Of a DNA stretch of 64,000 nt, positions 725 through 54,809 are shown piece after piece. The DNA comes from a virus. Made by a program: the position numbers and the translations under genes. The DNA is taken from the UHGV virus genome UHGV-1366990. One strand, given 5' to 3'. Positions within the stretch are counted from its first letter, which is position 1. The number at the start of each line of letters is the position of its first letter. The notes below the pieces were generated by a model. That model worked only from the letters and a program-made list of their open reading frames with translations. It did not search any database and was not told the origin of the DNA.

Positions 725-1132
725 TCAGTGCTCCCGCGCCGGAAGAACTCCCAATGGTTCGATGCCATCCAACAGCAGGGAGTTCACACCCGCATTACTC
801 AGTCTGATCAAGATTGTTCCCCCTGGGTTAACTTCAAAGATGCTCATCCCATTTCCAACCGCGTCGTTGTTAACGAACACACCCTGAGTTGCGATTCGTA
901 CTGGTTTATCTGTGTCATTCATGATCTTGAACGTCACGATTATATCCGATGTTGTACCCAGTCGTCCAACCATGCGTTGCTTCAGCTTGGTATAGAATGA
1001 TGGATTAAAAGTGATAATGATGCTGTTGTTCTGAGAGTAATAAATACTGGCTGAAAGGTATGGAATCTTCCCTTCATCGCCACGCCGCAGGAGAGGAATT
1101 GTGGTCCTCCAGTATGGCTTGAGGGTGCTCAT
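725..1132 (-). CDS. Hypothetical protein (alternative start at 973)
   Basis: C-terminal 135 aa of minus ORF 725..1540 look protein-like; weak RBS; convergent with the upstream + gene with no spacer, so uncertain. Confidence 0.25.
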   Translation of the reverse strand: MSTLKPYWRTTIPLLRRGDEGKIPYLSASIYYSQNNSIIITFNPSFYTKLKQRMVGRLGTTSDIIVTFKIMNDTDKPVRIATQGVFVNNDAVGNGMSIFEVNPGGTILIRLSNAGVNSLLLDGIEPLGVLPAREH

Positions 1133-1403
1133 GTTCTCATCAAAGCAACCTAAAGGTACGAGCTTCTGGAAGGGCTGGAACTCTTGCACGATGATGTCCA
1201 GCATACCCTTGTTACAAGTGGGAACGCTGGCCGACAACATCACAGGTACGGTGCGCACTTCTGGGGTCCAGAGTTCGGAAACAGAAATTATTGGCGTGAC
1301 AAAGATGCGACAGCTCGTAAACAAGAGCATCGAGCATGCCAACAACAATCTACTGATCCCGCGCATCAGGGTCACAACATATCTCCACAGCAAAGGTGCT
1401 ATT

Positions 1404-3189: not shown

Positions 3190-4698
3190 ATGGCAGACAT
3201 TCAGATTGTTAAGGTTAACGAAGTCCGCATGCGTTGCATCGCAGATCTTTCTATCAGGGAAGAACTTAATGACTACTTCAAATTCGAAGACCCGAACTTC
3301 GTTCCCAACCCCTTCTCTAAATGGGACGGGGTTGTCCGCCTATTTACCAAGTCATCTGGTCTAATCGATATCGGTCTGCTGTTTGAGGTATTTAAGTTCT
3401 GTAAGAACAACGGATACACCATTGAACTGGATCCGGCACTGAAGTACATTCAGGACATCCCAGATGAAGAAATCCGTGAATTCATCGACAGCCTGCATCC
3501 AAAGATCCGTACCGAAAATCACGAATATATCGATGCCGAGACTCGTGACTACCAGTACGACACCATCGCCAAGGCTATGCGTCAAACCAGATGCGTCTGT
3601 GAACTGGCTACGAGTGCCGGTAAGTCCTTTATTCTGTATGTCATGGCGCGGTACTACAGGCGGCGCAGAGAAGCTCTCGAAAGTCCTCTGAAGACGCTTA
3701 TCGTGGTGCCGTCAATCCACCTAGTCACTCAGCTGTACGACAACTTCGAAGAGTATGCGCATGGCAGTGATTGGAAGCCCGTTGTTAACACCCAGCTGAT
3801 TTTTGAGGGCGCGACAAAGGAGATCAGTAAACCAATCGTCATCAGCACATGGCAGGGCATTCAAGACCAGTCGAAGGAATGGTTCCACCAGTTCGGCGAT
3901 ATCGTGGTGGATGAAGTGCACACCTCCAAGTCTGAGAAACTGTCTTACATCCTGAACAACTGCATCTATGCCGACCAGCGCCTGGGGGTTACAGGTACGC
4001 TGGCGAACACCAAAGTTGCCGGGCTTCAGGTGGTGGCTCACTTCGGGGCGTACCATAAGATCATCACGGCTCGCGATCTTATCAATCTCGGGTACGCCAC
4101 TGACATCAAAGTGAAGATGATTCAGCTGAAGCACACTCCGGCGGATGCTGTTGGTCTAGACGGGGATTATTCCAAGGAAATAGAATACCTTATTACACAC
4201 CAGTCCCGCAACGAACTGATCGCCAAGATGGCACTGAATCTGAAAGGGAACGTGGCCATCATGTTCGAGCGTATTGACGCCCACATGATGGTTGTGTACG
4301 ATATGCTGAGCGCAGTCAAGCCCAACGTGTTTGTCATCAACGGGGAAGTGAAGATCGAAGACCGCCGCCGCATACAGAAAGCGATGGAGGATGGAGAAGA
4401 TATCACGTTGTTGGCTTCATACGGGACAATGCAACAGGGTGTGTCAATCAAGAAGCTACACCACCTTGTACTGGCACACCCGAGCAAGTCATATATCCGT
4501 GTCATACAGACATTGGGTCGTCTGATGCGTCAGCACTCCTCTAAGGACGTCGCGTGGATATGGGACTTAGTGGATGATGCATCGTACAACGCCAGCACGA
4601 ACCACGCTCTCAGGCACTCTCATGAACGTTACAAGTTTTACCTGGCAGAGCGCCACCCCGTGGAGTTCATGAAGGTGGCGCTGGGCAATCACGATTAA
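3190..4698 (+). CDS. uvsW: UvsW-like SF2 DNA helicase
   Basis: N-terminus resembles T4 UvsW; Walker A TSAGKS, DEVH box; internal ATG at 3190 (MADIQ...) of ORF 3097..4698. Confidence 0.85.
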   Translation: MADIQIVKVNEVRMRCIADLSIREELNDYFKFEDPNFVPNPFSKWDGVVRLFTKSSGLIDIGLLFEVFKFCKNNGYTIELDPALKYIQDIPDEEIREFIDSLHPKIRTENHEYIDAETRDYQYDTIAKAMRQTRCVCELATSAGKSFILYVMARYYRRRREALESPLKTLIVVPSIHLVTQLYDNFEEYAHGSDWKPVVNTQLIFEGATKEISKPIVISTWQGIQDQSKEWFHQFGDIVVDEVHTSKSEKLSYILNNCIYADQRLGVTGTLANTKVAGLQVVAHFGAYHKIITARDLINLGYATDIKVKMIQLKHTPADAVGLDGDYSKEIEYLITHQSRNELIAKMALNLKGNVAIMFERIDAHMMVVYDMLSAVKPNVFVINGEVKIEDRRRIQKAMEDGEDITLLASYGTMQQGVSIKKLHHLVLAHPSKSYIRVIQTLGRLMRQHSSKDVAWIWDLVDDASYNASTNHALRHSHERYKFYLAERHPVEFMKVALGNHD

Positions 4699-5066
4699 TC
4701 TTGATTCACATAGGCGGGGGTGGCCTCGCCTTCATCAGTTACTACGCCGAACAATTTATCCAGAGAAGCCAGACATTGTGAGTTTAGGTGTTCACTGATC
4801 GTATCCTTCAGCATTTCTTCGCTGCCCAATTTGAATGGCAGAACTTTCGCTTCGATGCCGTTTTCAAACGTCACCACACCGACATACAGACCAACTTTCA
4901 GACCTGTCATCAAACCCAGAGGGACAAATCGCGGCTCCGATGGTAAGTTCTTGTCTGACGCCAGCTGTGTCAGATAAACCGGGGTGCCTGTGATAAATTG
5001 ACCTGTGGTGAGGTTGGCGTCTGGCTTACTACACCCGACTGCGTATAATCCTACGAACTGTTTCAT
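4695..5066 (-). CDS. Hypothetical protein
   Basis: 123-aa minus ORF, 4-nt convergent overlap with uvsW; followed by a 360-bp AT-rich intergenic region. Confidence 0.5.
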   Translation of the reverse strand: MKQFVGLYAVGCSKPDANLTTGQFITGTPVYLTQLASDKNLPSEPRFVPLGLMTGLKVGLYVGVVTFENGIEAKVLPFKLGSEEMLKDTISEHLNSQCLASLDKLFGVVTDEGEATPAYVNQD

Positions 5067-5427: not shown

Positions 5428-6096
5428 ATGCAAGAGATCACTCTCTCCGAACGTACACTTCAGTTGCTGGCCAACTTTGAGACCATCAACCCATCTATCG
5501 TTCTGACACCGGGCAAGATGCTGCGCAGTATTAATGATTCTTCTACTGTGATCGCCGTGGCGCAGATCGAAGAAGACTTCCCGTTTGAGTTCCCGATTCT
5601 GGACCTGACCAAACTTCTGGCCATCCAGCGCCTACCTTCCTTCAAAGGTGCCAAAGCCGAATTCCATCAGGACTACATCCTGTTGAAAGGCGAAAGCTCT
5701 CAGCTGCAATTCTGGCGTTCTGCTAAAGAACTCACTGTTGTTCCGGCTGACACCATTGAACTGCCGTCTGTTGACTTTGAAGCGATCATCACTCCAGAGA
5801 AGATGAAAGAACTGACCCGCGCCTGCTCTACCCTCGGACACAAGACTGTGCGTCTGGTTGCTCAGGGTGGCAAAACTCGCCTGGTTGCAACCACCACTAC
5901 CCTGGACAACTCCAACAACTACACTGTTGAGCTGGGCGAAACCGCGCTGCCGGACTTCGTAATGCCGCTGGATGTTGCCAACCTGAAAATGATCGAAGGC
6001 AACTACACTCTGCGTGCATGTGCTGATCTACAGATGGTGAACTTCCAATCATCAGACGCGACGATCAATTACTTCGTCGGCGCACAGATTGAGTAA
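5428..6096 (+). CDS. 45: Sliding clamp (gp45-like)
   Basis: 222 aa; N-terminal similarity to T4 gp45; followed by clamp loader genes as in T4. Confidence 0.85.
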   Translation: MQEITLSERTLQLLANFETINPSIVLTPGKMLRSINDSSTVIAVAQIEEDFPFEFPILDLTKLLAIQRLPSFKGAKAEFHQDYILLKGESSQLQFWRSAKELTVVPADTIELPSVDFEAIITPEKMKELTRACSTLGHKTVRLVAQGGKTRLVATTTTLDNSNNYTVELGETALPDFVMPLDVANLKMIEGNYTLRACADLQMVNFQSSDATINYFVGAQIE

Positions 6097-7622: not shown

Positions 7623-8087
7623 ATGGCGCGTAATACGCTAGACATATTGAATATTTCAGCAGTCAACGATGAGGCCAGCATCGTTGATTGTATGGTTGAA
7701 GTTCAATTGAACCAAGATCGGCCAGGTATATTCCTGGGGATCAAGGAAACACTGAGTCGAATTGGGGTAAACACGCGCCAAGAGCCGAATACTCTGTATC
7801 AGACTTGCCATATTCTTCATAAGTGTGGTAAGTATTATATCGTCCACTTTAAGCATCTATTTATGCTGGACGGGCATTACAACGGATTTAACCGCGAAGA
7901 TGTCCTGAGGATGAACCGAATCATCAAGCTGCTGGAGCAGTGGAACATGGTGAAGGTCATTCATCCTGAGCAGGTCACCGAAGCAGCCGATATGTCTCGC
8001 ATTAAAGTGGTTAAACACGATCAGGTTCCTGAATGGAAGCTGGTTCCAAAATACATCATCCGGCCTACAAAGGCAAAAAGCGAATAA
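7623..8087 (+). CDS. regA: RegA-like translational repressor
   Basis: LYQTCHILHKCGKYYIVHFKHL and EWKLVPKYII closely match T4 RegA. Confidence 0.85.
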   Translation: MARNTLDILNISAVNDEASIVDCMVEVQLNQDRPGIFLGIKETLSRIGVNTRQEPNTLYQTCHILHKCGKYYIVHFKHLFMLDGHYNGFNREDVLRMNRIIKLLEQWNMVKVIHPEQVTEAADMSRIKVVKHDQVPEWKLVPKYIIRPTKAKSE

Positions 8088-22546: not shown

Positions 22547-22598
22547 TTCTATCTGACGCGCGGCCAGACTCTGCAATACAGGGCATGGCAAAAGAGAA

Positions 22599-22626
22599 AG
22601 CCGGAGTACAATGCTCCGGCTTTTTC
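22599..22626 (+). terminator. Rho-independent terminator after HU gene
   Basis: GCCGGAG/CTCCGGC stem followed by TTTTT. Confidence 0.6.
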
Positions 22627-22675: not shown

Positions 22676-24394
22676 GTGACAGCATTCAACCAATATACCA
22701 AGGCGCTTGACGGCGTCGGACCAGTCAGCATAGACCACATCAAGTCTCTTGCCACTGAGTTCTTCCCGTATGACACCGCCAACCCCGGCCAGATGGAATG
22801 CATCGTTGAAGCCATTGATGCCCTTGTGAATAAGAAATTCAAACACGTGATCATCGAGGCTCCGACTGGTGTAGGTAAATCCCTCATCGGCACTACCATC
22901 CATAACGTGCTTCGCCATTTGGTTCTTGAGCACAACCCGTATGGTCAGTTCCGCACGTCTATCACGACGCCGACCAAAGGTTTACAGGATCAGTATGCAG
23001 CAGAGAAAGCCGTGGCGATAGACATCCTGAAGGGCAAGAAGAACTACCGTTGCCACATCAGTCCCGACCTATACTACAACGCCATTCAGTGCCGTATGGC
23101 ATGCCGTGATGGCCACTGTAGTAAGAATCGTTGCCCATATGTTCAGGCGCGTCGACAGTGGACCGACGTCTCCTCCCTGCGCTGCACCAACGCCGCCATG
23201 ATGGTGGAGATGTGTACGACGATTTGTATGAAGCCGGAAAACCGTGCCGATATGCTGATCCTTGACGAGTGTCATAAAATGCCCTCTACGCTCCTAGAGC
23301 ATACTATCATGGAATACAGCACAAAGGCTGTGGAAGGGCTGCTTACGATCCCCGAGGGAGTGCCTATCGTGGAGACCATCAAGGATATCATCACCCGCAC
23401 AGAGAACTATGAATTGGGCAAGCTGTATTCCCTGTCTGGTGAGATGCATGCGATATTTGATGAACTGCACGGCAAGGTTGAAGCCCTGTTGGAAACTCTT
23501 GAGGAACTGGTGGAGGACGAGCGCCTGACTGAAGCCCAGGTGATGAAGCTGTCTGATATTATTGATAATCTTCACAACCTCAGCGACTACTGTGGTATCA
23601 TGGGGCAGACCAACGCCAGCACTTTCATCGTACAGGAGAAGGACAAGGGTATGATTCAGTTCAAGCCTGTCATCGCCTCTGATGTATCCCAGTTCGGCCT
23701 GTTCCGCAAGGGTGACTACCACGTTCACATGTCGGCTACCATTTGTGGGATTGACTCGTACGCCCGGTCACTGGGTATCCGCGAGGGTGAGTACCACAAG
23801 ATACAGATCGGCAACCCTATCCCGATTGAGAACCGGAAAGTCAACTACATGCCCATCATGAAGATGACAGCGAACATGGGTGACTACGAGATGAAGAAGC
23901 TGGCTGAATACGTGGATGAAATTATCGCGTTCCACCCTGGACAGTCTGGCATCATTCACACAGTCAGTTATGACCGCGCCCTGGCTCTACAAAAGTTCAG
24001 TAAGTACCGGAATATGATTCACGTTCCTCGTACTCGTAAGGCTCTGATGGACATCATGGAACACGCGTTCAGGACGAAGACGCCTTGTGTCATCGCCAGT
24101 CCGGCCATGGAAGAGGGGTATGACTTCAAAGGTGATTATAGTCGATTTCAGATCTTGATCAAGGTGCCATACGATTACCTTGGTGATCCTCTGGTGGCCC
24201 ACGTCAACAGTGTGGACCCATCGGCGTACTTCAGGATGGCGGTACTGCGTATCGTTCAGATGTGTGGGCGTTCGGTCAGGGGCGTGAATGACTGGGCTGC
24301 GACGTACATCCTTGATTCTTCTTTTGAATCACTGATGATGCGCAACCCAGAGTTCTTCCCCGCTTGGTTCACTGATGCCGTGTTTGAGGTTTAG
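22676..24394 (+). CDS. DinG/Rad3(XPD)-like SF2 helicase with Cys cluster
   Basis: APTGVGKS Walker A, DECH box, Cys-rich insert (CHISPD...CRMACRDGHCSKNRCPY) typical of Fe-S helicases; GTG start after AGGAGG. Confidence 0.8.
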   Translation: MTAFNQYTKALDGVGPVSIDHIKSLATEFFPYDTANPGQMECIVEAIDALVNKKFKHVIIEAPTGVGKSLIGTTIHNVLRHLVLEHNPYGQFRTSITTPTKGLQDQYAAEKAVAIDILKGKKNYRCHISPDLYYNAIQCRMACRDGHCSKNRCPYVQARRQWTDVSSLRCTNAAMMVEMCTTICMKPENRADMLILDECHKMPSTLLEHTIMEYSTKAVEGLLTIPEGVPIVETIKDIITRTENYELGKLYSLSGEMHAIFDELHGKVEALLETLEELVEDERLTEAQVMKLSDIIDNLHNLSDYCGIMGQTNASTFIVQEKDKGMIQFKPVIASDVSQFGLFRKGDYHVHMSATICGIDSYARSLGIREGEYHKIQIGNPIPIENRKVNYMPIMKMTANMGDYEMKKLAEYVDEIIAFHPGQSGIIHTVSYDRALALQKFSKYRNMIHVPRTRKALMDIMEHAFRTKTPCVIASPAMEEGYDFKGDYSRFQILIKVPYDYLGDPLVAHVNSVDPSAYFRMAVLRIVQMCGRSVRGVNDWAATYILDSSFESLMMRNPEFFPAWFTDAVFEV

Positions 24395-25158
24395 TAACCC
24401 GCAACGAAGGACAGATGGCACTTGACATTCGGTTCCAACGACGTCACAGAAACCGTCATATTGTCCGTATCTTGGCTGAAGTCAATGGTGGCGAGAGGTT
24501 TGGTCTGAATATGGTTGTATACACTGTAGATCAGATCCTCGCCACGATACCCTACCTTCCCGTCTGTGTCTTGCCAATGACCCAGTGTCTCATCGTAGAC
24601 ATGCACTCTGAACTCGATCATATGGAAGAGTGCCTTGGGGATGTCCTTGAGTACGCTGGTACCAACCACGGGAATCTCTATGCTGGAATCATTGGAGTTC
24701 CCTTCATAGACCGAAGCCCATGCAAAGGTAGGATCACCCCCAGCAACAGGGGTTCGCTTCCAGTATTGGAATTCTGGGTTGCCCGAAGCGTTCTTCTGGA
24801 GTAGAATGACCTCACCACCTGTGAAGTTCGAGGTATCGATGTCGCCTCGCTGAAGTTCATCTGCTGGAGATCCAATAAATTTCCAGCCTTCGCGATCCAG
24901 TAAAGACTTATAATAGTCGGTGAACACGTTGCTGTCTTCTGCATCGTTGATGGCATCTTTGAGACCTTGGCCTGTCACCATCTCGTTGAGCTTCAACCAC
25001 ATGTTCTTGACAGCAGAAGCTGCTGCGACTTGTCCAGCAGTCCCACCTGCAGTATAATCATAGATGATATCTTCTGACTTGATAGCATCATAGATAGAGA
25101 GGAGCAATTGCTCAATCTGCGGGGCGGTGAGACTGAAACGATATGCGCGGGGTGCCAT
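24391..25158 (-). CDS. Hypothetical late protein (possibly structural)
   Basis: Internal ATG (MAPRAYRF) of minus ORF 24391..25317; TATAAATA late-promoter motif 35 nt upstream. Confidence 0.65.
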   Translation of the reverse strand: MAPRAYRFSLTAPQIEQLLLSIYDAIKSEDIIYDYTAGGTAGQVAAASAVKNMWLKLNEMVTGQGLKDAINDAEDSNVFTDYYKSLLDREGWKFIGSPADELQRGDIDTSNFTGGEVILLQKNASGNPEFQYWKRTPVAGGDPTFAWASVYEGNSNDSSIEIPVVGTSVLKDIPKALFHMIEFRVHVYDETLGHWQDTDGKVGYRGEDLIYSVYNHIQTKPLATIDFSQDTDNMTVSVTSLEPNVKCHLSFVAGY

Positions 25159-25193
25159 AGTTTCATTCCTCTTTCTATAAAACCAGTTTGGGA

Positions 25194-25201
25194 TATTTAT
25201 A
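25194..25201 (-). promoter_or_regulatory. T4-type late promoter TATAAATA (minus strand)
   Basis: Plus-strand TATTTATA; 35 nt upstream of minus start at 25158. Confidence 0.6.
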
Positions 25202-25203
25202 TC

Positions 25204-25731
25204 ATGATAGAAATTTATTCTGACGGGGGTTCTAACCCGAAGACCAACCAGGCCGCAGGCTGGGCATTTGTCATCAGGCCAATAACGGGTATGCAATGGA
25301 AGGTGTTCTTCGGTCATCTACCTCCCCCGTCCACCAACAATATCGCCGAGTTGTTGGGTGTGACCAACGCATTGAAGCTACTGTGGGCATTCTCAGGAAA
25401 GGGTGAGCGCAGAATACCAAAGGCAACAATTTGGTCTGACAGCCAATATGCCATCAAGAGTGTCACCGAATGGCGAACGAAGTGGGAGTATCAGGGGTTC
25501 CCAGAAAAGAACGTTGAACTCATCAAAGATCTGTTCAGAATCTATGATCTCGTTTGTTCAATTTGTGATGTTGAACTAAAATGGGTTAAGGGTCATGCGG
25601 GACACGAAGGCAACGAACTTGCCGATGACTGGGCTACAGCAGCCAAAAACGACAGCAACTTCCTGATTGAGAATGACAAGATCTCGGTGAGGAAGGTTGT
25701 TGGATCTTTTGATGAATTTATCGGTATCTGA
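25204..25731 (+). CDS. rnhA: Ribonuclease H (type 1, RnhA-like)
   Basis: YSDGGS...TNNIAEL...DSQY...WVKGHAGHEGNELADDWA matches RNase HI catalytic motifs. Confidence 0.85.
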   Translation: MIEIYSDGGSNPKTNQAAGWAFVIRPITGMQWKVFFGHLPPPSTNNIAELLGVTNALKLLWAFSGKGERRIPKATIWSDSQYAIKSVTEWRTKWEYQGFPEKNVELIKDLFRIYDLVCSICDVELKWVKGHAGHEGNELADDWATAAKNDSNFLIENDKISVRKVVGSFDEFIGI

Positions 25732-25742
25732 GGACTATCATA

Positions 25743-26471
25743 ATGGGAATGAACTTCGTGGACAGAGGGGAGAATGTCGTCAAATATTTCACGGACGAAG
25801 ACAACGAGCGTGTCATTAGTATCCTTCGTGATTGGATCCCTGCTCGCAAGAAAGCACTTGCTGAGGGCACCAGGCTTCCAAAGATCCCCAACTATGTTGC
25901 TCTGCAGGTCCAGCGCATCATCACCAAGATGAGTACCCGCTACAACTATCGCGATTATCCCTTCCGTGAAGACATGGTCTCTGAAGCAATCGTCAACATC
26001 CTGCGTTACCTCCACACATTTGACGTCGACCACATCGGTAAGAAAGGGAAGATCAACTTCTTTTCTTGGGTGACCATGTGTGCTGATCGCTCATTTGCCC
26101 GTAAACTGAACATCGAAGAAGAGCACACGTACATTAAATTGCGCTCATTTGAAGAGGCGGGTGGGTTCGCAGGCCTGGCAGACGATCCCGACTTCCAACA
26201 AGAGATCTTTGTTGATGCTACAGGAATTGGCATGGACTTCCGTGAACGTATCGGCAACTTTGAGAACAAAAAGGACGCTCAAAGGCAAAAGGAGCGAGAG
26301 AAGGTGGAGGCGGCTCGTCTCGCAGAATCGAATAAAAAGATTGCGAAAGGCATACTTCAATACATGGCGCAGGCTAAGAATACGACACCAGCGCAGGCCG
26401 AAGAAAATTTAGATCAGGACTTCGGCAATACCCAATTCGGCCTAGACGAAACCGAAGGAGAAACAGAATAA
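25743..26471 (+). CDS. 55: Late-transcription sigma factor (gp55-like)
   Basis: N-terminal similarity to T4 gp55; located next to gp47/gp46 as in T4. Confidence 0.65.
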   Translation: MGMNFVDRGENVVKYFTDEDNERVISILRDWIPARKKALAEGTRLPKIPNYVALQVQRIITKMSTRYNYRDYPFREDMVSEAIVNILRYLHTFDVDHIGKKGKINFFSWVTMCADRSFARKLNIEEEHTYIKLRSFEEAGGFAGLADDPDFQQEIFVDATGIGMDFRERIGNFENKKDAQRQKEREKVEAARLAESNKKIAKGILQYMAQAKNTTPAQAEENLDQDFGNTQFGLDETEGETE

Positions 26472-30682: not shown

Positions 30683-30687
30683 GGCTG

Positions 30688-30721
30688 AAGGGCACTAAAT
30701 ACCACGTGCCCTTTATCTTTT
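30688..30721 (+). terminator. Rho-independent terminator
   Basis: GGGCAC/GTGCCC stem followed by TTTATCTTTT. Confidence 0.55.
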
Positions 30722-30778
30722 AACCCCTGTCAGGAGGCTCAAGCGAGCTGCAAGTCGACAAACATAAGGAACGCCATC

Positions 30779-31393
30779 ATGACGATGACAACGTTGAAGG
30801 CCATGGCCTTGTCCGTGACCTTTACCATTGCCAGCGGGAATGTGCACGCTTCCCAAAATACAAGTCAATGTGTTTATAATTTCTCCGAGCAACAACTTAA
30901 TACGATGGCAACCGCCTATCACGTAGGCAAGACACAAGATCTTGGCTACACGCTGGCCGCCATATCTTGGCGAGAGAGCCGCGCTGGTGAAGATGTAGTG
31001 TCAATGCGATACGGCCTCAAAGCGGCCAACATGGGAGCCTTTCAGAACAAGGTGAAGACAGTTGGTGATCGCGAAGGTTGTAAGAATCGCAAGTGCTATG
31101 CCAATGTCGCCATAAAGTTGCTGACCGACCAAGAATATGCCGCGCAAGCCGCCCTCGATGAGATGCAGTTCTGGCTGACCTATCACAATCAGAATATCCG
31201 CAAATCCCTCTCCTCTTACAATGCTGGCTTCGCCCGTAATCCTGCATCGAACGCTTATGCTGCCGACGTCGTGAAGAAAGCTAAATATCTTCAGAAATGT
31301 GTGTCCTTCGAAGGCCGGACCATCTCCGAGGTAGATCCTCAGGTGATCGCCATGAACAAGCACACAATAGAGAAACTGAAGAGGACAAGATAA
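30779..31393 (+). CDS. Secreted protein; possible lytic transglycosylase-like
   Basis: Signal peptide-like N-terminus; AISWRESRAG resembles the catalytic ES motif region of SLT domains (weak). Confidence 0.5.
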   Translation: MTMTTLKAMALSVTFTIASGNVHASQNTSQCVYNFSEQQLNTMATAYHVGKTQDLGYTLAAISWRESRAGEDVVSMRYGLKAANMGAFQNKVKTVGDREGCKNRKCYANVAIKLLTDQEYAAQAALDEMQFWLTYHNQNIRKSLSSYNAGFARNPASNAYAADVVKKAKYLQKCVSFEGRTISEVDPQVIAMNKHTIEKLKRTR

Positions 31394-36121: not shown

Positions 36122-36170
36122 AAGGTTGCACTAGACGACGCCACGGCGAAAGAACTTGGTCTGTAACTGG

Positions 36171-36200
36171 ATCCCCCTAAATACAGGGGGATTTCTTTTT
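36171..36200 (+). terminator. Rho-independent terminator
   Basis: ATCCCCC/GGGGGAT stem followed by TTCTTTTT. Confidence 0.6.
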
Positions 36201-36215
36201 CTGAGGAAACAAATC

Positions 36216-36569
36216 ATGGTCAATGCGAGTATTTTCATCAACCGTGGACTGCTTGCTATAGCCCACTCTCATGCCTTGCACTTCGTTACAACGTCCTATG
36301 CCAAGCACAAGGCACTCGGGGAGTTCTACGGGGATCTAGAGGACTTGCTGGACACGTTTACCGAAGCATACATCGGTGCGGGTGGTCAGTATGTTCCATC
36401 ATTCGAGAATATCAAATTGTACAACCCAGACCCTATCTCCTATATTAACAGTGTGGTGATAGACGTCGACGGTATCTACAGGCAGTGCGACTCCCACCTT
36501 CAGAACACGCTTGATGAAATCAAGACGCTGTGTTACCAGACGATCTACAAACTGAAGCAGCTGTCGTAA
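36216..36569 (+). CDS. Hypothetical protein
   Basis: Internal ATG (MVNASIF) with RBS GAGGAAA. Confidence 0.55.
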   Translation: MVNASIFINRGLLAIAHSHALHFVTTSYAKHKALGEFYGDLEDLLDTFTEAYIGAGGQYVPSFENIKLYNPDPISYINSVVIDVDGIYRQCDSHLQNTLDEIKTLCYQTIYKLKQLS

Positions 36570-39772: not shown

Positions 39773-39843
39773 TATAATTCTGTTCCTCGAGTAGTTCACT
39801 TTCACTTTAAATACCTCTGCATTCATTGTGGAGGTATTTTCTT

Positions 39844-40638
39844 ATGGCCATTCTAAAATTTGGCAATCGTGGTACTGAAGTGAAGGCACTTCAGGATAGC
39901 CTCAACAAAATCGGCTTCACCCTCGTCGCTGATGGTATCTTTGGCAAGGCAACAGAGAACGCCGTCAAGACTGTTCAGGCGGGTGCGGGGCTTGTCATCG
40001 ATGGTATCGTGGGTCCAAAGACCTCCTATGCTATTCGCAACGCCGGAGACGCCCATCAGGATCATCTAACTGAGTCAGACCTGATTGATGCTGCTAACGA
40101 TCTGGGTGTTGACCTTGCCTCTGTCAAGGCGGTAAATCAGGTTGAGTCGCGCGGCACGGGCTTCACCAAGTCAGGTAAGATCAAGACATTATTTGAGCGC
40201 CACATCATGTATAAGAAGCTGATGGCGAAGTTCGGACAGGCTCGGGCGAATGCCATGGGGCATATGTACCCGACGTTGGTCAGCCCTTCCGCAGGCGGGT
40301 ACACGGGAGGCGACGCGGAGTTGGATCGACTTCATGCGGCCATCAACATCGATGAGGATTGTGCGTACGAGAGCGCCTCTTACGGTCTCTTCCAGATCAT
40401 GGGATTCAACTGCCAGGTCTGTGGATATGCCAACGCCAAGGAGATGTTCAACGACTTCCTGACAGGAGAACGTGCTCATTTGATGGCATTCGTGAAGTTC
40501 ATCAAGGCTGACGCCAAGCTCTGGCAGGCTCTGAAGGACAAGAACTGGTCTGAATTTGCACGGCGCTATAATGGTCCGGCGTATGCCAAGAACCAGTACG
40601 ACAAGAAGCTCGCAGCAGCATACAAGAGTTTCAGTTAA
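39844..40638 (+). CDS. Endolysin: peptidoglycan-binding domain plus muramidase-like domain
   Basis: N-terminal PG-binding repeat (GNRGTEVKALQDSLNKIGF...DGIFGKATENAV...DGIVGPKT); C-terminal YGLFQIMGFN...RRYNGPAY. Confidence 0.75.
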   Translation: MAILKFGNRGTEVKALQDSLNKIGFTLVADGIFGKATENAVKTVQAGAGLVIDGIVGPKTSYAIRNAGDAHQDHLTESDLIDAANDLGVDLASVKAVNQVESRGTGFTKSGKIKTLFERHIMYKKLMAKFGQARANAMGHMYPTLVSPSAGGYTGGDAELDRLHAAINIDEDCAYESASYGLFQIMGFNCQVCGYANAKEMFNDFLTGERAHLMAFVKFIKADAKLWQALKDKNWSEFARRYNGPAYAKNQYDKKLAAAYKSFS

Positions 40639-48671: not shown

Positions 48672-48679
48672 TATTTATG
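48672..48679 (-). promoter_or_regulatory. Late-promoter-like CATAAATA (minus strand) upstream of gp5-like gene
   Basis: Plus-strand TATTTATG; same ~35-nt spacing to start codon 48637. Confidence 0.45.
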
Positions 48680-49956: not shown

Positions 49957-49999
49957 AATGTATCTCCACGGTATATTGTAAGAGTAATTATAACGAGGA

Positions 50000-51952: not shown

Positions 51953-52184
51953 TTATCAATGCAAGGGCTGTGGTAACGCGATGACACTGCGTAAATCTAT
52001 TGCAGATCGCCATGAGCCTGAATCCAACCCCTGCACTGAGTGCGGAGGGGAGATTAAAATGATCGTGGGTGCTCCCAAGATTGTCTCTGGGGTAAAGGGA
52101 CCACAATCAGCTCCAGACGGCTTCAAGGACGTCTTGCGTACGATAAAGAAGGGTTCGGGTAAGGGGAACACAATCGATGTCTGA
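51939..52184 (+). CDS. FmdB-like zinc-ribbon protein
   Basis: MPLYDYQCKGCG...CTECGG. Confidence 0.6.
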   Translation: MPLYDYQCKGCGNAMTLRKSIADRHEPESNPCTECGGEIKMIVGAPKIVSGVKGPQSAPDGFKDVLRTIKKGSGKGNTIDV

Positions 52185-52422
52185 CGAAAAACAGCCAGCG
52201 CTTGTGATGACACCAGAATTATTTTCTGAAATCGTCCTACTACGCGCCGCCCAAACCAAGGATAGTATCCTTGAGACTCTGGCAGCTGTCTGTGAAGAGA
52301 ACGACATAGACGAGACCAAAGTCAAAAAGATGATTACAGCACCATTGTTGTCACGACTGACAGCTGAGTGCTCCGATGCGCGCCTGATCAAAGACGCGCT
52401 AAAGTCCAAGAAATTAGTGTAG
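52177..52422 (+). CDS. Hypothetical protein
   Basis: 81-aa ORF. Confidence 0.5.
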   Translation: MSDEKQPALVMTPELFSEIVLLRAAQTKDSILETLAAVCEENDIDETKVKKMITAPLLSRLTAECSDARLIKDALKSKKLV

Positions 52423-53791: not shown

Positions 53792-53818
53792 AGCCATCTT
53801 CGGATGGCTTTTTATTTT
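53792..53818 (+). terminator. Rho-independent terminator after gene 32
   Basis: AGCCATC/GATGGCT stem followed by TTTTATTTT. Confidence 0.65.
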
Positions 53819-54756
53819 CCCATCACGTCTTGCAATATTCCCAAAAGGCTTGTCTTCTCCGCCGCCGTCAGGTTATCGTTACCCATGATGTCACGAGAGA
53901 TACCTACCGAGATGCGCTCGAAGTCCTGTATGCTTATTCCAGCCAGGTTGTTTACAAGTTGGTCAAGCTGTTTGTAAGCCAGGAGAGCCTCTCCTGTGAA
54001 GTTCCCTTCTTTCACCTTGCGATAAAGCTGTCCAGCTTTTGAGGCCGCAGTTTCCCAGTCACCACTGGTAAGAGCGTCAGCAATGCCGAGAGGAAGAAAA
54101 TCGCTGGAAAGGCTGCGTGTTTCATATTCTGTCTCCGAAAGCACTTTGTTGTAAGAGAAAGAAATGTTGTACTGGTTGAACTGGTCTGTGGCGCCTTTAT
54201 CCAGCTCAATAGAACTGAAATTTATTGGGTGAGCCTCGACGATGTAGACGCGATGGACCACTTGATCTTCGGTGTCAAGCTGTTCAATGCATATGTCAGT
54301 CACGAAGTCTTCGTAATATCCCATTTTGGTGGTGTGTGGATCAAAGATCAGACTCTTCCACTTGTCCATCACAGACTTCTCATAATAGTCATTGGCTAAT
54401 AAGAATGACAAGTCGAGGTCGACGTTGGACTTGTTGTTCGGCATCTTGATGTGATTACCGTTGTTTGTCATTGGAGTGGTGTCGATACCAACCCCTGGCA
54501 ATGAGGCAACCATACACATCATCTGAAGGGAACGGGACGTCTGGTTTGTCCCTCCAAAGAAAGCGTTTACAATACGGGCTGACTGCTTAAACAAGTCACC
54601 GAAAGATGAATTGGTTCTGTACGCCTTTCCGTCATTAGCCAGAGAGGCATTGGAGTCAAAGATCCCTGGTGGTAGAGGGATGGTCACTCTGAAGCGGTTC
54701 TTGCGCGACAAGCCCCGCTGTAATATCTGTGTGATAAAATTGCGATAGTCTTCCAC
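53812..54756 (-). CDS. Hypothetical late protein (possibly structural); GTG start
   Basis: 314-aa minus ORF; perfect TATAAATA 35 nt upstream plus GGAG RBS. Confidence 0.6.
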   Translation of the reverse strand: MEDYRNFITQILQRGLSRKNRFRVTIPLPPGIFDSNASLANDGKAYRTNSSFGDLFKQSARIVNAFFGGTNQTSRSLQMMCMVASLPGVGIDTTPMTNNGNHIKMPNNKSNVDLDLSFLLANDYYEKSVMDKWKSLIFDPHTTKMGYYEDFVTDICIEQLDTEDQVVHRVYIVEAHPINFSSIELDKGATDQFNQYNISFSYNKVLSETEYETRSLSSDFLPLGIADALTSGDWETAASKAGQLYRKVKEGNFTGEALLAYKQLDQLVNNLAGISIQDFERISVGISRDIMGNDNLTAAEKTSLLGILQDVMGK

Positions 54757-54790
54757 GGTGAGGACTCCACTTAAATAAAATAACTGTTAT

Positions 54791-54798
54791 TATTTATA
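54791..54798 (-). promoter_or_regulatory. T4-type late promoter TATAAATA (minus strand)
   Basis: Plus-strand TATTTATA; 35 nt upstream of minus GTG start 54756. Confidence 0.6.
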
Positions 54799-54809
54799 GG
54801 AGTTGACAA

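What the first reader, a model, noticed from the sequence alone, without database searches (positions are those of the whole stretch)
25159..25203. Divergent 45-bp region: minus-strand late promoter overlapping the rnh translation start
Minus-strand TATAAATA (plus 25194..25201), the T4 late-promoter consensus, lies 35 nt upstream of the minus gene start (25158) and only 3 nt from the plus-strand RNase H start codon (25204). A gp55-like late sigma factor is encoded 0.5 kb away. The same motif at the same spacing recurs upstream of minus genes at 54756 (TATAAATA, plus 54791..54798) and 48637 (CATAAATA, plus 48672..48679).
Basis: partly seen in the sequence, partly recalled or inferred. Interest (0 to 1): 0.5.

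Follow-up and report, generated by a model that had tools for sequence, protein, structure and literature searches.

The report
Phage late promoter beside RNase H gene
This is an ordinary T4-style late promoter in a ViI-like (Ackermannviridae) phage that switches on a virion-protein gene; the identical sequence is already annotated as a putative late promoter in the related phage LIMEstone1.

Summary
The window is an Ackermannviridae (Aglimvirinae) phage genome, 98.9% identical to Escherichia phage vB_EcoM-ZQ1. Minus-strand TATAAATA lies at 25201..25194. It is 35 nt before the ATG (25158) of a 255-aa gene and 2 nt from the ATG (25204) of an RNase HI gene.

The raw count of TATAAATA is not significant (2 copies, 0.75 expected). 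The placement is. Both exact copies, and one-mismatch copies before gp5 and gp26, sit 28-35 nt before the starts of virion genes. That is 4 of 8 minus-strand genes against 1 of 67 plus-strand genes (p = 2.7e-4).

The box is kept at this spot in five enterobacterial genera (TATAAGTA in Kuttervirus). Vibrio relatives carry CTAAATA there.

The downstream protein is 92.9% identical to LIMEstone1 ORF093, a virion protein confirmed by mass spectrometry. Homologues of gp55, gp33 and gp45 are all in the window.

The LIMEstone1 GenBank record already marks the identical sequence as a "putative late promoter".

No 5'-end mapping was found for this family, so function remains inferred. The family's commoner late box appears to be (A/C)CTAAATA, not T4's TATAAATA. 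Low interest; already known.

The parts
25194..25201 (-). Late-promoter box TATAAATA (-10-type element recognised by the gp55-like sigma factor)
   Evidence: Exact match. Conserved in LIMEstone1, AG3, 0507-KN2-1, phiEa2809 and 2050H1; TATAAGTA in Det7, EP75 and Matapan; T/A/C-CTAAATA in Vibrio relatives. The identical sequence is annotated as a putative late promoter in HE600015.
25187..25189 (-). Predicted transcription start (an A about 6 nt after the box); inferred, not mapped
   Evidence: Inferred from the T4 rule that the box sits about one helical turn upstream of the start (PMC2988020). The sequence TCCCAAAC follows the box.
25159..25188 (-). Predicted 30-nt leader carrying the Shine-Dalgarno sequence GAGGA (25171..25167)
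   Evidence: Read from the sequence. No significant RNA structure (z = -0.4).
24391..25158 (-). 255-aa virion protein gene of unknown function (phrog_3833), the only minus-strand gene in a block of plus-strand replication genes
   Evidence: It is 92.9% identical to LIMEstone1 ORF093, a 'confirmed structural protein' with 8 peptides and 40.8% coverage.
25204..25731 (+). RNase HI gene, divergent from the virion gene; its ribosome-binding site GGGA (25190..25193) and start codon flank the late box
   Evidence: Pfam PF00075, E = 5e-25. The start codon is conserved across genera. The Matapan record annotates the GGG as the ribosome-binding site.
25743..26471 (+). gp55-like late sigma factor, in the same plus-strand operon as RNase HI (11-nt gap)
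   Evidence: phrog_234, E = 1e-51. T4 gp55 matches the same family at 3e-69.
52177..52422 (+). gp33-like late-transcription co-activator
   Evidence: Pfam PF16805, E = 8.5e-18; phrog_254.
5428..6096 (+). gp45-like sliding clamp
   Evidence: phrog_223, E = 1e-64.
54791..54798 (-). Second exact TATAAATA, 34 nt before the gp54-like gene (GTG 54756)
   Evidence: Same sequence as AG3 'Porf072'.
48672..48679 (-). CATAAATA, 34 nt before the gp5-like gene (ATG 48637)
   Evidence: Same sequence as AG3 'Porf084' and annotated in LIMEstone1.
49985..49992 (-). TATAATTA, 28 nt before the gp26-like gene (ATG 49956); LIMEstone1 has TATAAATA at the orthologous position

Best explanation
The minus-strand octamer TATAAATA (25201..25194) is the sole recognition element of a T4-type late promoter.

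Proposed mechanism: after replication begins, host RNA polymerase core carries the phage gp55-like sigma factor. The gp33-like co-activator assists, and probably the gp45-like sliding clamp does too. The polymerase opens DNA at this box and starts at an A near 25188. This yields a roughly 30-nt unstructured leader with the Shine-Dalgarno sequence GAGGA, followed by the mRNA of a 255-aa virion protein (25158..24391).

The promoter is packed into a 45-bp head-to-head spacer, so its box lies between the ribosome-binding site (GGGA) and the start codon of the divergent RNase HI gene. That gene heads the RNase HI-gp55-gp47-gp46 operon. The operon's own promoter must lie inside or upstream of the virion gene.

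Shown: the sequence, its spacing, its conservation, its recurrence before other virion genes, the presence of the three late-transcription factors, and the virion status of the orthologous protein.

Inferred: promoter activity, the start site, late timing, and clamp dependence.
For: - The octamer and its spacing are exact.
- The box is conserved in five enterobacterial genera while the spacer length (39-47 bp) and the rest of its sequence vary. Vibrio relatives have a CTAAATA box directly after the RNase H start codon and 28-30 nt before the gene.
- The same box class lies 28-35 nt before gp54, gp5 and gp26. That is 4 of 8 minus-strand genes against 1 of 67 plus-strand genes, p = 2.7e-4, and shuffle P = 0.0076.
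- TAAATA is positionally specific compared with composition-matched hexamers.
- The gp5 box has no divergent neighbour, so this box class does not depend on an overlapping translation start.
- gp55-like, gp33-like and gp45-like genes are present.
- The orthologue ORF093 is a virion protein by mass spectrometry.
- No sigma-70-type promoter is called at the site.
- The identical sequence is annotated as a putative late promoter in HE600015.
- The properties of T4 late promoters are taken from PMC2988020.
Against: - No transcript 5'-end or time-course data were found for any Ackermannviridae phage. The CBA120 paper states that the late recognition sequence of ViI-like phages had not been identified.
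- The count of the octamer in the window is not above chance.
- The six bases after the box (TCCCAA) are not AT-rich as they are in T4.
- Kuttervirus carries TATAAGTA, which breaks the TAAATA core.
- The gp55-like protein shows no pairwise BLASTP similarity to T4 gp55, so its DNA specificity cannot simply be transferred from T4.
- The box also lies inside the RNase HI translation-initiation region, which could contribute to its conservation.
Confidence: 0.8

Rival explanations
1. The AU-rich octamer is conserved because it is the spacer between the ribosome-binding site and the start codon of the RNase HI mRNA. It might also be an operator for the RegA-like translational repressor encoded at 7623..8087. 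On this view its resemblance to a late promoter on the other strand is incidental.
For: The box lies between GGGA (25190..25193) and ATG 25204. The GGG is conserved across genera and is annotated as the ribosome-binding site in Matapan. A RegA homologue is annotated in the closest relative and maps into the window. That AU-rich spacers favour translation is my own knowledge.
Against: Spacer sequences are not normally kept base for base, yet the octamer is invariant in five of six enterobacterial lineages, while its offset from the start codon varies from overlapping it by 2 nt (phiEa2809) to 2 nt clear of it. The same octamer class sits at the same distance before gp5, where there is no divergent gene, and before gp54 and gp26. 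In Vibrio relatives it changes to the family's usual late box, CTAAATA. The two functions could coexist.
Confidence: 0.07
2. It is a host sigma-70 promoter of the extended -10 type (TGATATAAA = TGn + TATAAA) that expresses the 255-aa gene early.
For: In the window the TG of the RNase HI start codon lies one base before TATAAA, giving a 5-of-6 match to the -10 hexamer plus a TGn motif (read).
Against: The consensus scan calls no sigma-70-like promoter at the site, so no acceptable -35 is present. The TGn register is lost in Det7, 0507-KN2-1 (CG), phiEa2809 and 2050H1, while the octamer is kept. The gene product is a virion protein.
Confidence: 0.05
3. It is a chance AT-rich octamer in a short spacer with no function of its own. 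The virion gene would then be transcribed from elsewhere.
For: Only 2 copies occur in the window against 0.75 expected, and 17% of shuffles reach that count. Locally shuffled upstream regions still give 1.25 genes with a one-mismatch box on average.
Against: The box is conserved across genera, recurs in the same position before virion genes, and there is no other minus-strand gene or promoter candidate upstream for about 21 kb.
Confidence: 0.05

Closest known systems
Putative late promoter annotated in Dickeya phage LIMEstone1 (HE600015.1, minus_10_signal 68385..68390, between RNaseHI ORF092 and ORF093)
   Same: It is the orthologous element. The 45-bp spacer is identical base for base (GATATAAATATCCCAAACTGGTTTTATAGAAAGAGGAATGAAACT). 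The flanking genes are the same, and the downstream protein is 92.9% identical.
   Different: Different phage and host. The LIMEstone1 annotators marked only the hexamer TAAATA. That annotation is also a prediction without transcript mapping.
Bacteriophage T4 late promoters (TATAAATA, dependent on gp55, gp33 and gp45)
   Same: The 8-bp box is identical, no -35 element is present, homologues of the three factors are encoded, and the promoter drives a virion gene set in opposite orientation among replication genes.
   Different: The segment after the box is C-rich (TCCCAA) rather than AT-rich. The sigma factor is too diverged for BLASTP to detect. The family's commoner box is (A/C)CTAAATA. The gp33-like protein (81 aa, ending ...ALKSKKLV) shows no obvious T4-style C-terminal clamp-binding motif. 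From my own knowledge and the paper listed, the DNA of ViI-like phages carries hypermodified thymidine rather than glucosyl-hydroxymethylcytosine.
Putative late promoters Porf072 and Porf084 of Shigella phage AG3 (Anany et al. 2011, PMC3121705, Table S2)
   Different: The AG3 table does not list the promoter before orf124. The paper attributes Porf072 to gp2, whereas its strand points at the gp54-like gene.

Membership tests
T4-type (gp55-dependent) late promoter | 8-bp box TATAAATA | tested here: met
   Exact match at 25201..25194 on the minus strand.
T4-type (gp55-dependent) late promoter | No conserved -35 element | tested here: met
   The consensus scan calls no sigma-70-type promoter at the site. 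The sequence upstream of the box is RNase HI coding sequence.
T4-type (gp55-dependent) late promoter | Genome encodes gp55 (late sigma), gp33 (co-activator) and gp45 (clamp) | tested here: met
   gp55-like: phrog_234, 1e-51, the same family as T4 gp55. gp33-like: PF16805, 8.5e-18. gp45-like: phrog_223, 1e-64. Pairwise BLASTP against T4 gp55 finds nothing.
T4-type (gp55-dependent) late promoter | Transcript starts about 6-7 nt after the box, late in infection and dependent on gp55 | not testable with these tools
   Needs 5'-end mapping or a time course. No such data were found for Ackermannviridae.
T4-type (gp55-dependent) late promoter | AT-rich segment between the box and the start site | tested here: inconclusive
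   Here it is TCCCAA (3 of 6 A/T). Many family sites read TAAATACCCC. T4 shows an AT preponderance.
T4-type (gp55-dependent) late promoter | Drives a late (virion or lysis) gene | tested here: met
   The orthologue LIMEstone1 ORF093 (92.9% identical) was found in virions with 8 peptides. Expression timing itself was not measured.
T4-type (gp55-dependent) late promoter | Activation by a DNA-loaded sliding clamp through C-terminal clamp-binding motifs of gp55 and gp33 | not tested
   The C-termini were only read. The gp55-like protein ends ...NLDQDFGNTQFGLDETEGETE and the gp33-like protein ends ...ALKSKKLV, against T4 gp55 ...SLDFLYEAND.
Ackermannviridae predicted late box (TAAATA core, as annotated in LIMEstone1) | TAAATA 20-45 nt before a gene start with a Shine-Dalgarno sequence, conserved at orthologous positions | tested here: met
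   35 nt before ATG 25158. Conserved across genera. TAAATA is positionally enriched against composition-matched hexamers.
Sigma-70 extended -10 promoter | TGn directly before a -10 hexamer, conserved among relatives | tested here: not met
   TGATATAAA occurs in the window, AG3 and LIMEstone1 only. The register or the TG is lost in Det7, 0507-KN2-1, phiEa2809 and 2050H1.

The most novel reading that the evidence does not exclude
The placement could be regulatory rather than mere compaction. The gp55-dependent promoter fires head-on into the only route by which RNA polymerase can reach the RNase HI-gp55-gp47-gp46 operon, since plus-strand transcripts must cross the virion gene and this spacer. 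Its own transcript runs antisense into the helicase gene, with no terminator before 22623..22597. Late-promoter firing would then damp synthesis of gp55 itself and of the helicase, through transcriptional interference or antisense RNA, giving an autoregulatory loop for the late sigma factor. The conserved order helicase / reversed virion gene / RNase HI / gp55 in 8 of 9 genomes examined is compatible with this but does not show it.
Probability: 0.1. Interest if true: 0.45.

Novelty: already known. Interest (0 to 1): 0.15.

Why it matters
It matters little on its own. It is one more predicted T4-type late promoter, and the identical orthologous sequence is already annotated in a public record.

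Its modest value is as part of a coherent picture for Ackermannviridae. The 2011 CBA120 paper called this family's late-promoter sequence unidentified, and I found no transcript mapping in the library searched. The positional statistics and cross-genus conservation gathered here support a TAAATA-core box (commonly CTAAATA, less often TATAAATA) about 25-40 nt before late-gene start codons. That gives a concrete, testable annotation rule for a family widely used in phage biocontrol and engineering.

Tried and rejected
- **Promoter for RNase HI inside the virion gene.** A sigma-70-like site lies at 25030..25058(+) (TTGTCC-17-TATAAT, 10 of 12). It is not conserved in LIMEstone1 or Det7 (TGTAAT, TGTAGT), so I did not adopt it. 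A plus-strand TATAAA at 25177..25182 has no -35 and is not conserved either.
- **RNA structure.** The leader, the promoter region and the RNase HI initiation region show none above shuffles (z = -0.4, +0.8, +1.7).
- **Rfam.** No family matched in the whole window.
- **Terminators at the convergent helicase/virion-gene junction.** None found.
- **Identity of the 255-aa protein.** No Pfam family. It falls in phrog_3833 of unknown function. There is no relative in the PDB. Single-sequence AlphaFold gave pLDDT 46, which is unusable, so I ran no fold search. I judged the large homologue search not worth its cost for a side question.
- **Direct BLASTP of the gp55-like protein against T4 gp55.** No similarity. 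A PDB sequence search gave only noise. The relationship rests on the shared PHROG profile.
- **Literature searches for transcript mapping or RNA-seq in Ackermannviridae.** Nothing relevant. The 2024 review has no mention of promoters or transcription.

Full report
**What the window is.** A 3-kb query around the finding matches Ackermannviridae phages. It is 98.9% identical to Escherichia phage vB_EcoM-ZQ1, about 94% to Shigella phage AG3 and Salmonella phage SKML-39, and 60-80% to Kuttervirus, Taipeivirus and Limestonevirus members. I mapped the ZQ1 annotation onto the window. This gives a long block of plus-strand replication and nucleotide-metabolism genes with eight minus-strand genes scattered in it:
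- a 216-aa gene (1375..725) and a 123-aa gene (5066..4695);
- the 255-aa gene of this finding (25158..24391);
- the baseplate genes gp25-like, gp5-like, a 49-aa ORF and gp26-like (46.5-50 kb);
- the gp54-like gene (54756..53812).

**Checking the observation.** The sequence is as described.
- Minus-strand TATAAATA occupies 25201..25194.
- The minus-strand gene starts at ATG 25158, with the Shine-Dalgarno sequence GAGGA at 25171..25167. Thirty-five nt lie between the box and that ATG.
- The plus-strand gene starts at ATG 25204, two bases from the box.
- The plus-strand gene is RNase HI (PF00075, E = 5e-25). It is not a homologue of T4 rnh, which from my own knowledge is a flap-endonuclease-type exonuclease.
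- The gp55-like gene lies at 25743..26471. It matches phrog_234 'late sigma transcription factor' at 1e-51, and T4 gp55 matches the same family at 3e-69. Pairwise BLASTP between the two proteins finds nothing.
- A gp33-like co-activator (PF16805, 8.5e-18) and a gp45-like clamp (phrog_223) are also in the window.

**Is it more than chance?** The count is not. There are two exact copies against 0.75 expected, and 17 of 100 shuffles reach two. The placement is.
- A box with at most one mismatch ends 25-40 nt before 4 of the 8 minus-strand genes: the 255-aa gene, gp5, gp26 (TATAATTA at 49985..49992) and gp54. These are all four heads of virion-gene transcription units between 24 and 55 kb. Only 1 of 67 plus-strand genes has one (Fisher p = 2.7e-4).
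- Shuffling each 60-nt upstream region gives 1.25 such genes on average, and reaches the observed 5 in 0.76% of 5000 trials.
- As an unbiased control I compared all hexamers with the composition A4T2. TAAATA lies 20-45 nt before a start codon that has a Shine-Dalgarno sequence and opens an ORF of at least 60 aa in 37%, 46% and 35% of its copies. These figures are for the window and two 50-kb parts of LIMEstone1. The other hexamers reach 0-27%, at most 0.19 for all but two values, and several of the higher ones overlap TAAATA by a shift.

**Conservation.** The 255-aa protein has relatives in 357 phage records. I read the spacer in twelve relatives from nine groups.
- AG3, vB_CECAV_050 and LIMEstone1 have the identical 45-bp spacer.
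- Taipeivirus 0507-KN2-1, Nezavisimistyvirus phiEa2809 and Miltonvirus 2050H1 keep TATAAATA exactly. Meanwhile the spacer length (39-47 bp), the bases on either side and the leader all diverge. In phiEa2809 the box overlaps the RNase H start codon.
- Three Kuttervirus genomes (Det7, EP75, Matapan) have TATAAGTA.
- Three distant Vibrio relatives (27-34% protein identity) still have the RNase H gene head to head with this gene. They carry TCTAAATA, ACTAAATA or CCTAAATA at or within a few bases of the RNase H start codon, 28-30 nt before the gene.
- The GGG that serves as the RNase HI ribosome-binding site is also conserved. Part of the conservation in the spacer therefore belongs to the other strand.

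**The downstream gene.** It has no Pfam family and falls in phrog_3833 of unknown function. No PDB relative exists. A single-sequence structure model was too poor to use (pLDDT 46). Its LIMEstone1 orthologue ORF093 is 92.9% identical and is annotated 'confirmed structural protein'. The paper's Table 2 lists it at 28.3 kDa with 40.8% coverage and 8 unique peptides in purified virions. A virion protein gene lying backwards among replication genes is exactly where a late promoter is expected. [quoted passage not shown]

**What is already known.**
- The LIMEstone1 GenBank record (HE600015.1) carries a regulatory feature 'minus_10_signal, putative late promoter' at 68385..68390. That is the TAAATA of the identical sequence between RNaseHI ORF092 and ORF093.
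- The LIMEstone paper reports 33 predicted late promoters, found by similarity to T4.
- The AG3 paper searched for TATAAATA with one mismatch and found 17 candidates. It lists three, and two of them (Porf072, Porf084) are the window's 54791 and 48672 sites.
- The CBA120 paper states that the sequence recognised by the late transcription complex of ViI-like phages had not been identified. It adds that points of divergent transcription must use still-unidentified promoters.
- I found no transcript 5'-end mapping or infection RNA-seq for this family.

The element is therefore a known prediction, not a new one, and it remains experimentally untested.

**A refinement.** Reading the sequences under the LIMEstone1 late-promoter features shows that T4's consensus is a minority form in this family.
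- The major structural genes gp18, gp19, gp14, ORF157 and two of the three tailspike genes carry ACTAAATA.
- gp6 carries GCTAAATA; gp48, ORF173 and ORF174 carry CCTAAATA.
- TATAAATA is found before gp26, ORF093, ORF168 and ORF191.
- The shared core is TAAATA. This fits the switch to CTAAATA at the orthologous site in the Vibrio relatives.
- The segment after the box is often C-rich (TAAATACCCC; here TCCCAA), unlike the AT-rich segment in T4.

**Mechanism.** By analogy with T4, RNA polymerase core bearing the gp55-like sigma factor would open the DNA at the box. It would start at an A about 6 nt downstream, near 25188. An A occupies that position at all five window sites I inspected. The resulting 30-nt leader is unstructured.

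The 45-bp spacer leaves no room for a plus-strand promoter.
- A -10-like TATAAA at 25177..25182 has no -35 and is not conserved.
- A sigma-70-like site at 25030..25058, inside the virion gene, is not conserved either.
- No terminator separates the helicase gene from RNase HI.

So RNase HI-gp55-gp47-gp46 transcripts most likely begin upstream and cross the virion gene in antisense. Late transcripts from this promoter, in turn, would run antisense into the helicase gene as far as the hairpin at 22623..22597. Whether this head-on layout has regulatory consequences, for example damping gp55 synthesis, is speculation. I give it about 10%.

**Rivals.**
- *Conservation due only to the RNase HI translation-initiation region, or a RegA-type operator.* This is unlikely as the sole explanation. 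The same box class sits at the same distance before gp5, where there is no divergent gene. The octamer is also kept while its offset from the start codon changes.
- *A host extended -10 promoter (TGATATAAA).* The TGn register is not conserved, and no sigma-70-type promoter is called at the site.
- *Pure chance.* This is contradicted by the conservation and the positional statistics.

**Verdict.** It needs three corrections: the gene is RNase HI rather than T4 rnh, the family box is looser than T4's, and the site was already annotated in a relative. It is an ordinary, previously predicted late promoter. Interest is low.

Noticed in passing
window 39806-39843 (+), before the endolysin ATG at 39844: TTTAAATA lies 30 nt before the endolysin gene and forms the 5' arm of a strong hairpin (AAAUACCUCUGCA / UGUGGAGGUAUUU, -16.1 kcal/mol, z = -4.6). 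The 3' arm contains the Shine-Dalgarno sequence GGAGG. A transcript starting about 6 nt after the box would lack the 5' arm and leave the Shine-Dalgarno sequence free, whereas read-through RNA would hide it. From my own knowledge this is the design known for T4 lysozyme gene e, soc, gene 49 and I-TevI. The AG3 paper lists the element only as a terminator (Torf098).
   Followed up: partly
window 36170-36200 (+) and 30687-30722 (+): CCTAAATA (36176) and ACTAAATA (30694) sit in the loops of terminator-like hairpins followed by T-runs (tcccccTAAATAcaggggga; aagggcacTAAATAccacgtgccctt). They lie upstream of genes at 36216 and 30779, which by position and protein size look like orthologues of LIMEstone1 virion proteins ORF078 and ORF085 (not checked by alignment). 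They may be terminators for early transcripts with a late promoter embedded in them.
   Followed up: partly
L010 and L016 (LIMEstone1), e.g. L016 35158, 23297, 21731, 47905; L010 42020: Many predicted late boxes read TAAATACCCC(A/T) and are followed by a hairpin whose 3' arm (GGGGTAT or GAGGATA) ends just before the start codon. This is the same layout of promoter box inside a leader hairpin as at the window's endolysin gene. Most LIMEstone1 structural genes carry (A/C)CTAAATA rather than T4's TATAAATA.
   Followed up: partly
window 54757-54809: The 53-bp gp54/gp2 spacer holds two boxes facing each other: CTTAAATA (54770..54777, +; annotated in LIMEstone1 as the gp2 late promoter) and TATAAATA (54798..54791, -). 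Their predicted start sites fall at almost the same base pair (about 54784), so the two transcripts would overlap at their 5' ends. The AG3 paper assigns its Porf072 to gp2, although the listed strand points at the gp54-like gene.
   Followed up: partly
window plus-strand intergenic gaps, e.g. 63901, 57667, 52670, 38601, 32070, 10289: TTCAATA occurs in 9 of 35 plus-strand intergenic gaps. At several sites it acts as a -35-like TTCAAT followed 15-17 nt later by TATAAT. Elsewhere it is preceded by CCCTTTACTTC. It is probably part of the early promoters that the literature says are hard to identify. None lies between the helicase and RNase HI genes.
   Followed up: partly
window 30779-31393 (+): The gene that ZQ1 annotates as 'putative RegB' (31004..31393) is in frame with a longer ORF starting at 30779. 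That ORF begins with a signal-peptide-like sequence (MTMTTLKAMALSVTFTIASGNVHA) and contains motifs resembling a lytic transglycosylase (WRES..., SYNAGF). The RegB label looks doubtful.
   Followed up: no
window 48487/48637, 49806/49956, 54513/54756; L001 7292: The closest relative ZQ1 annotates shorter forms of gp5, gp26 and gp54 than LIMEstone1 does. The longer forms have good Shine-Dalgarno sequences (gp26, gp54) and place the late box 28-34 nt upstream. AG3 annotates RNase H from a downstream start (146 aa) although its spacer and ATG are identical to the window's.
   Followed up: partly
window 52177-52422 and 25743-26471: The gp33-like protein (81 aa) ends ...DALKSKKLV and the gp55-like protein ends ...NLDQDFGNTQFGLDETEGETE. 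Neither clearly shows the T4-type C-terminal clamp-binding motif (T4 gp55 ends ...SLDFLYEAND). Whether the sliding clamp activates late transcription in this family is therefore open.
   Followed up: no
window 24391-24394 and 22597-22623: The helicase gene and the virion gene converge and overlap by 4 nt with no detectable terminator between them. The nearest minus-strand terminator-like hairpin is at 22623..22597, and it is also the terminator after the HU-like gene on the plus strand. Late transcripts would therefore be antisense to the whole helicase gene.
   Followed up: partly
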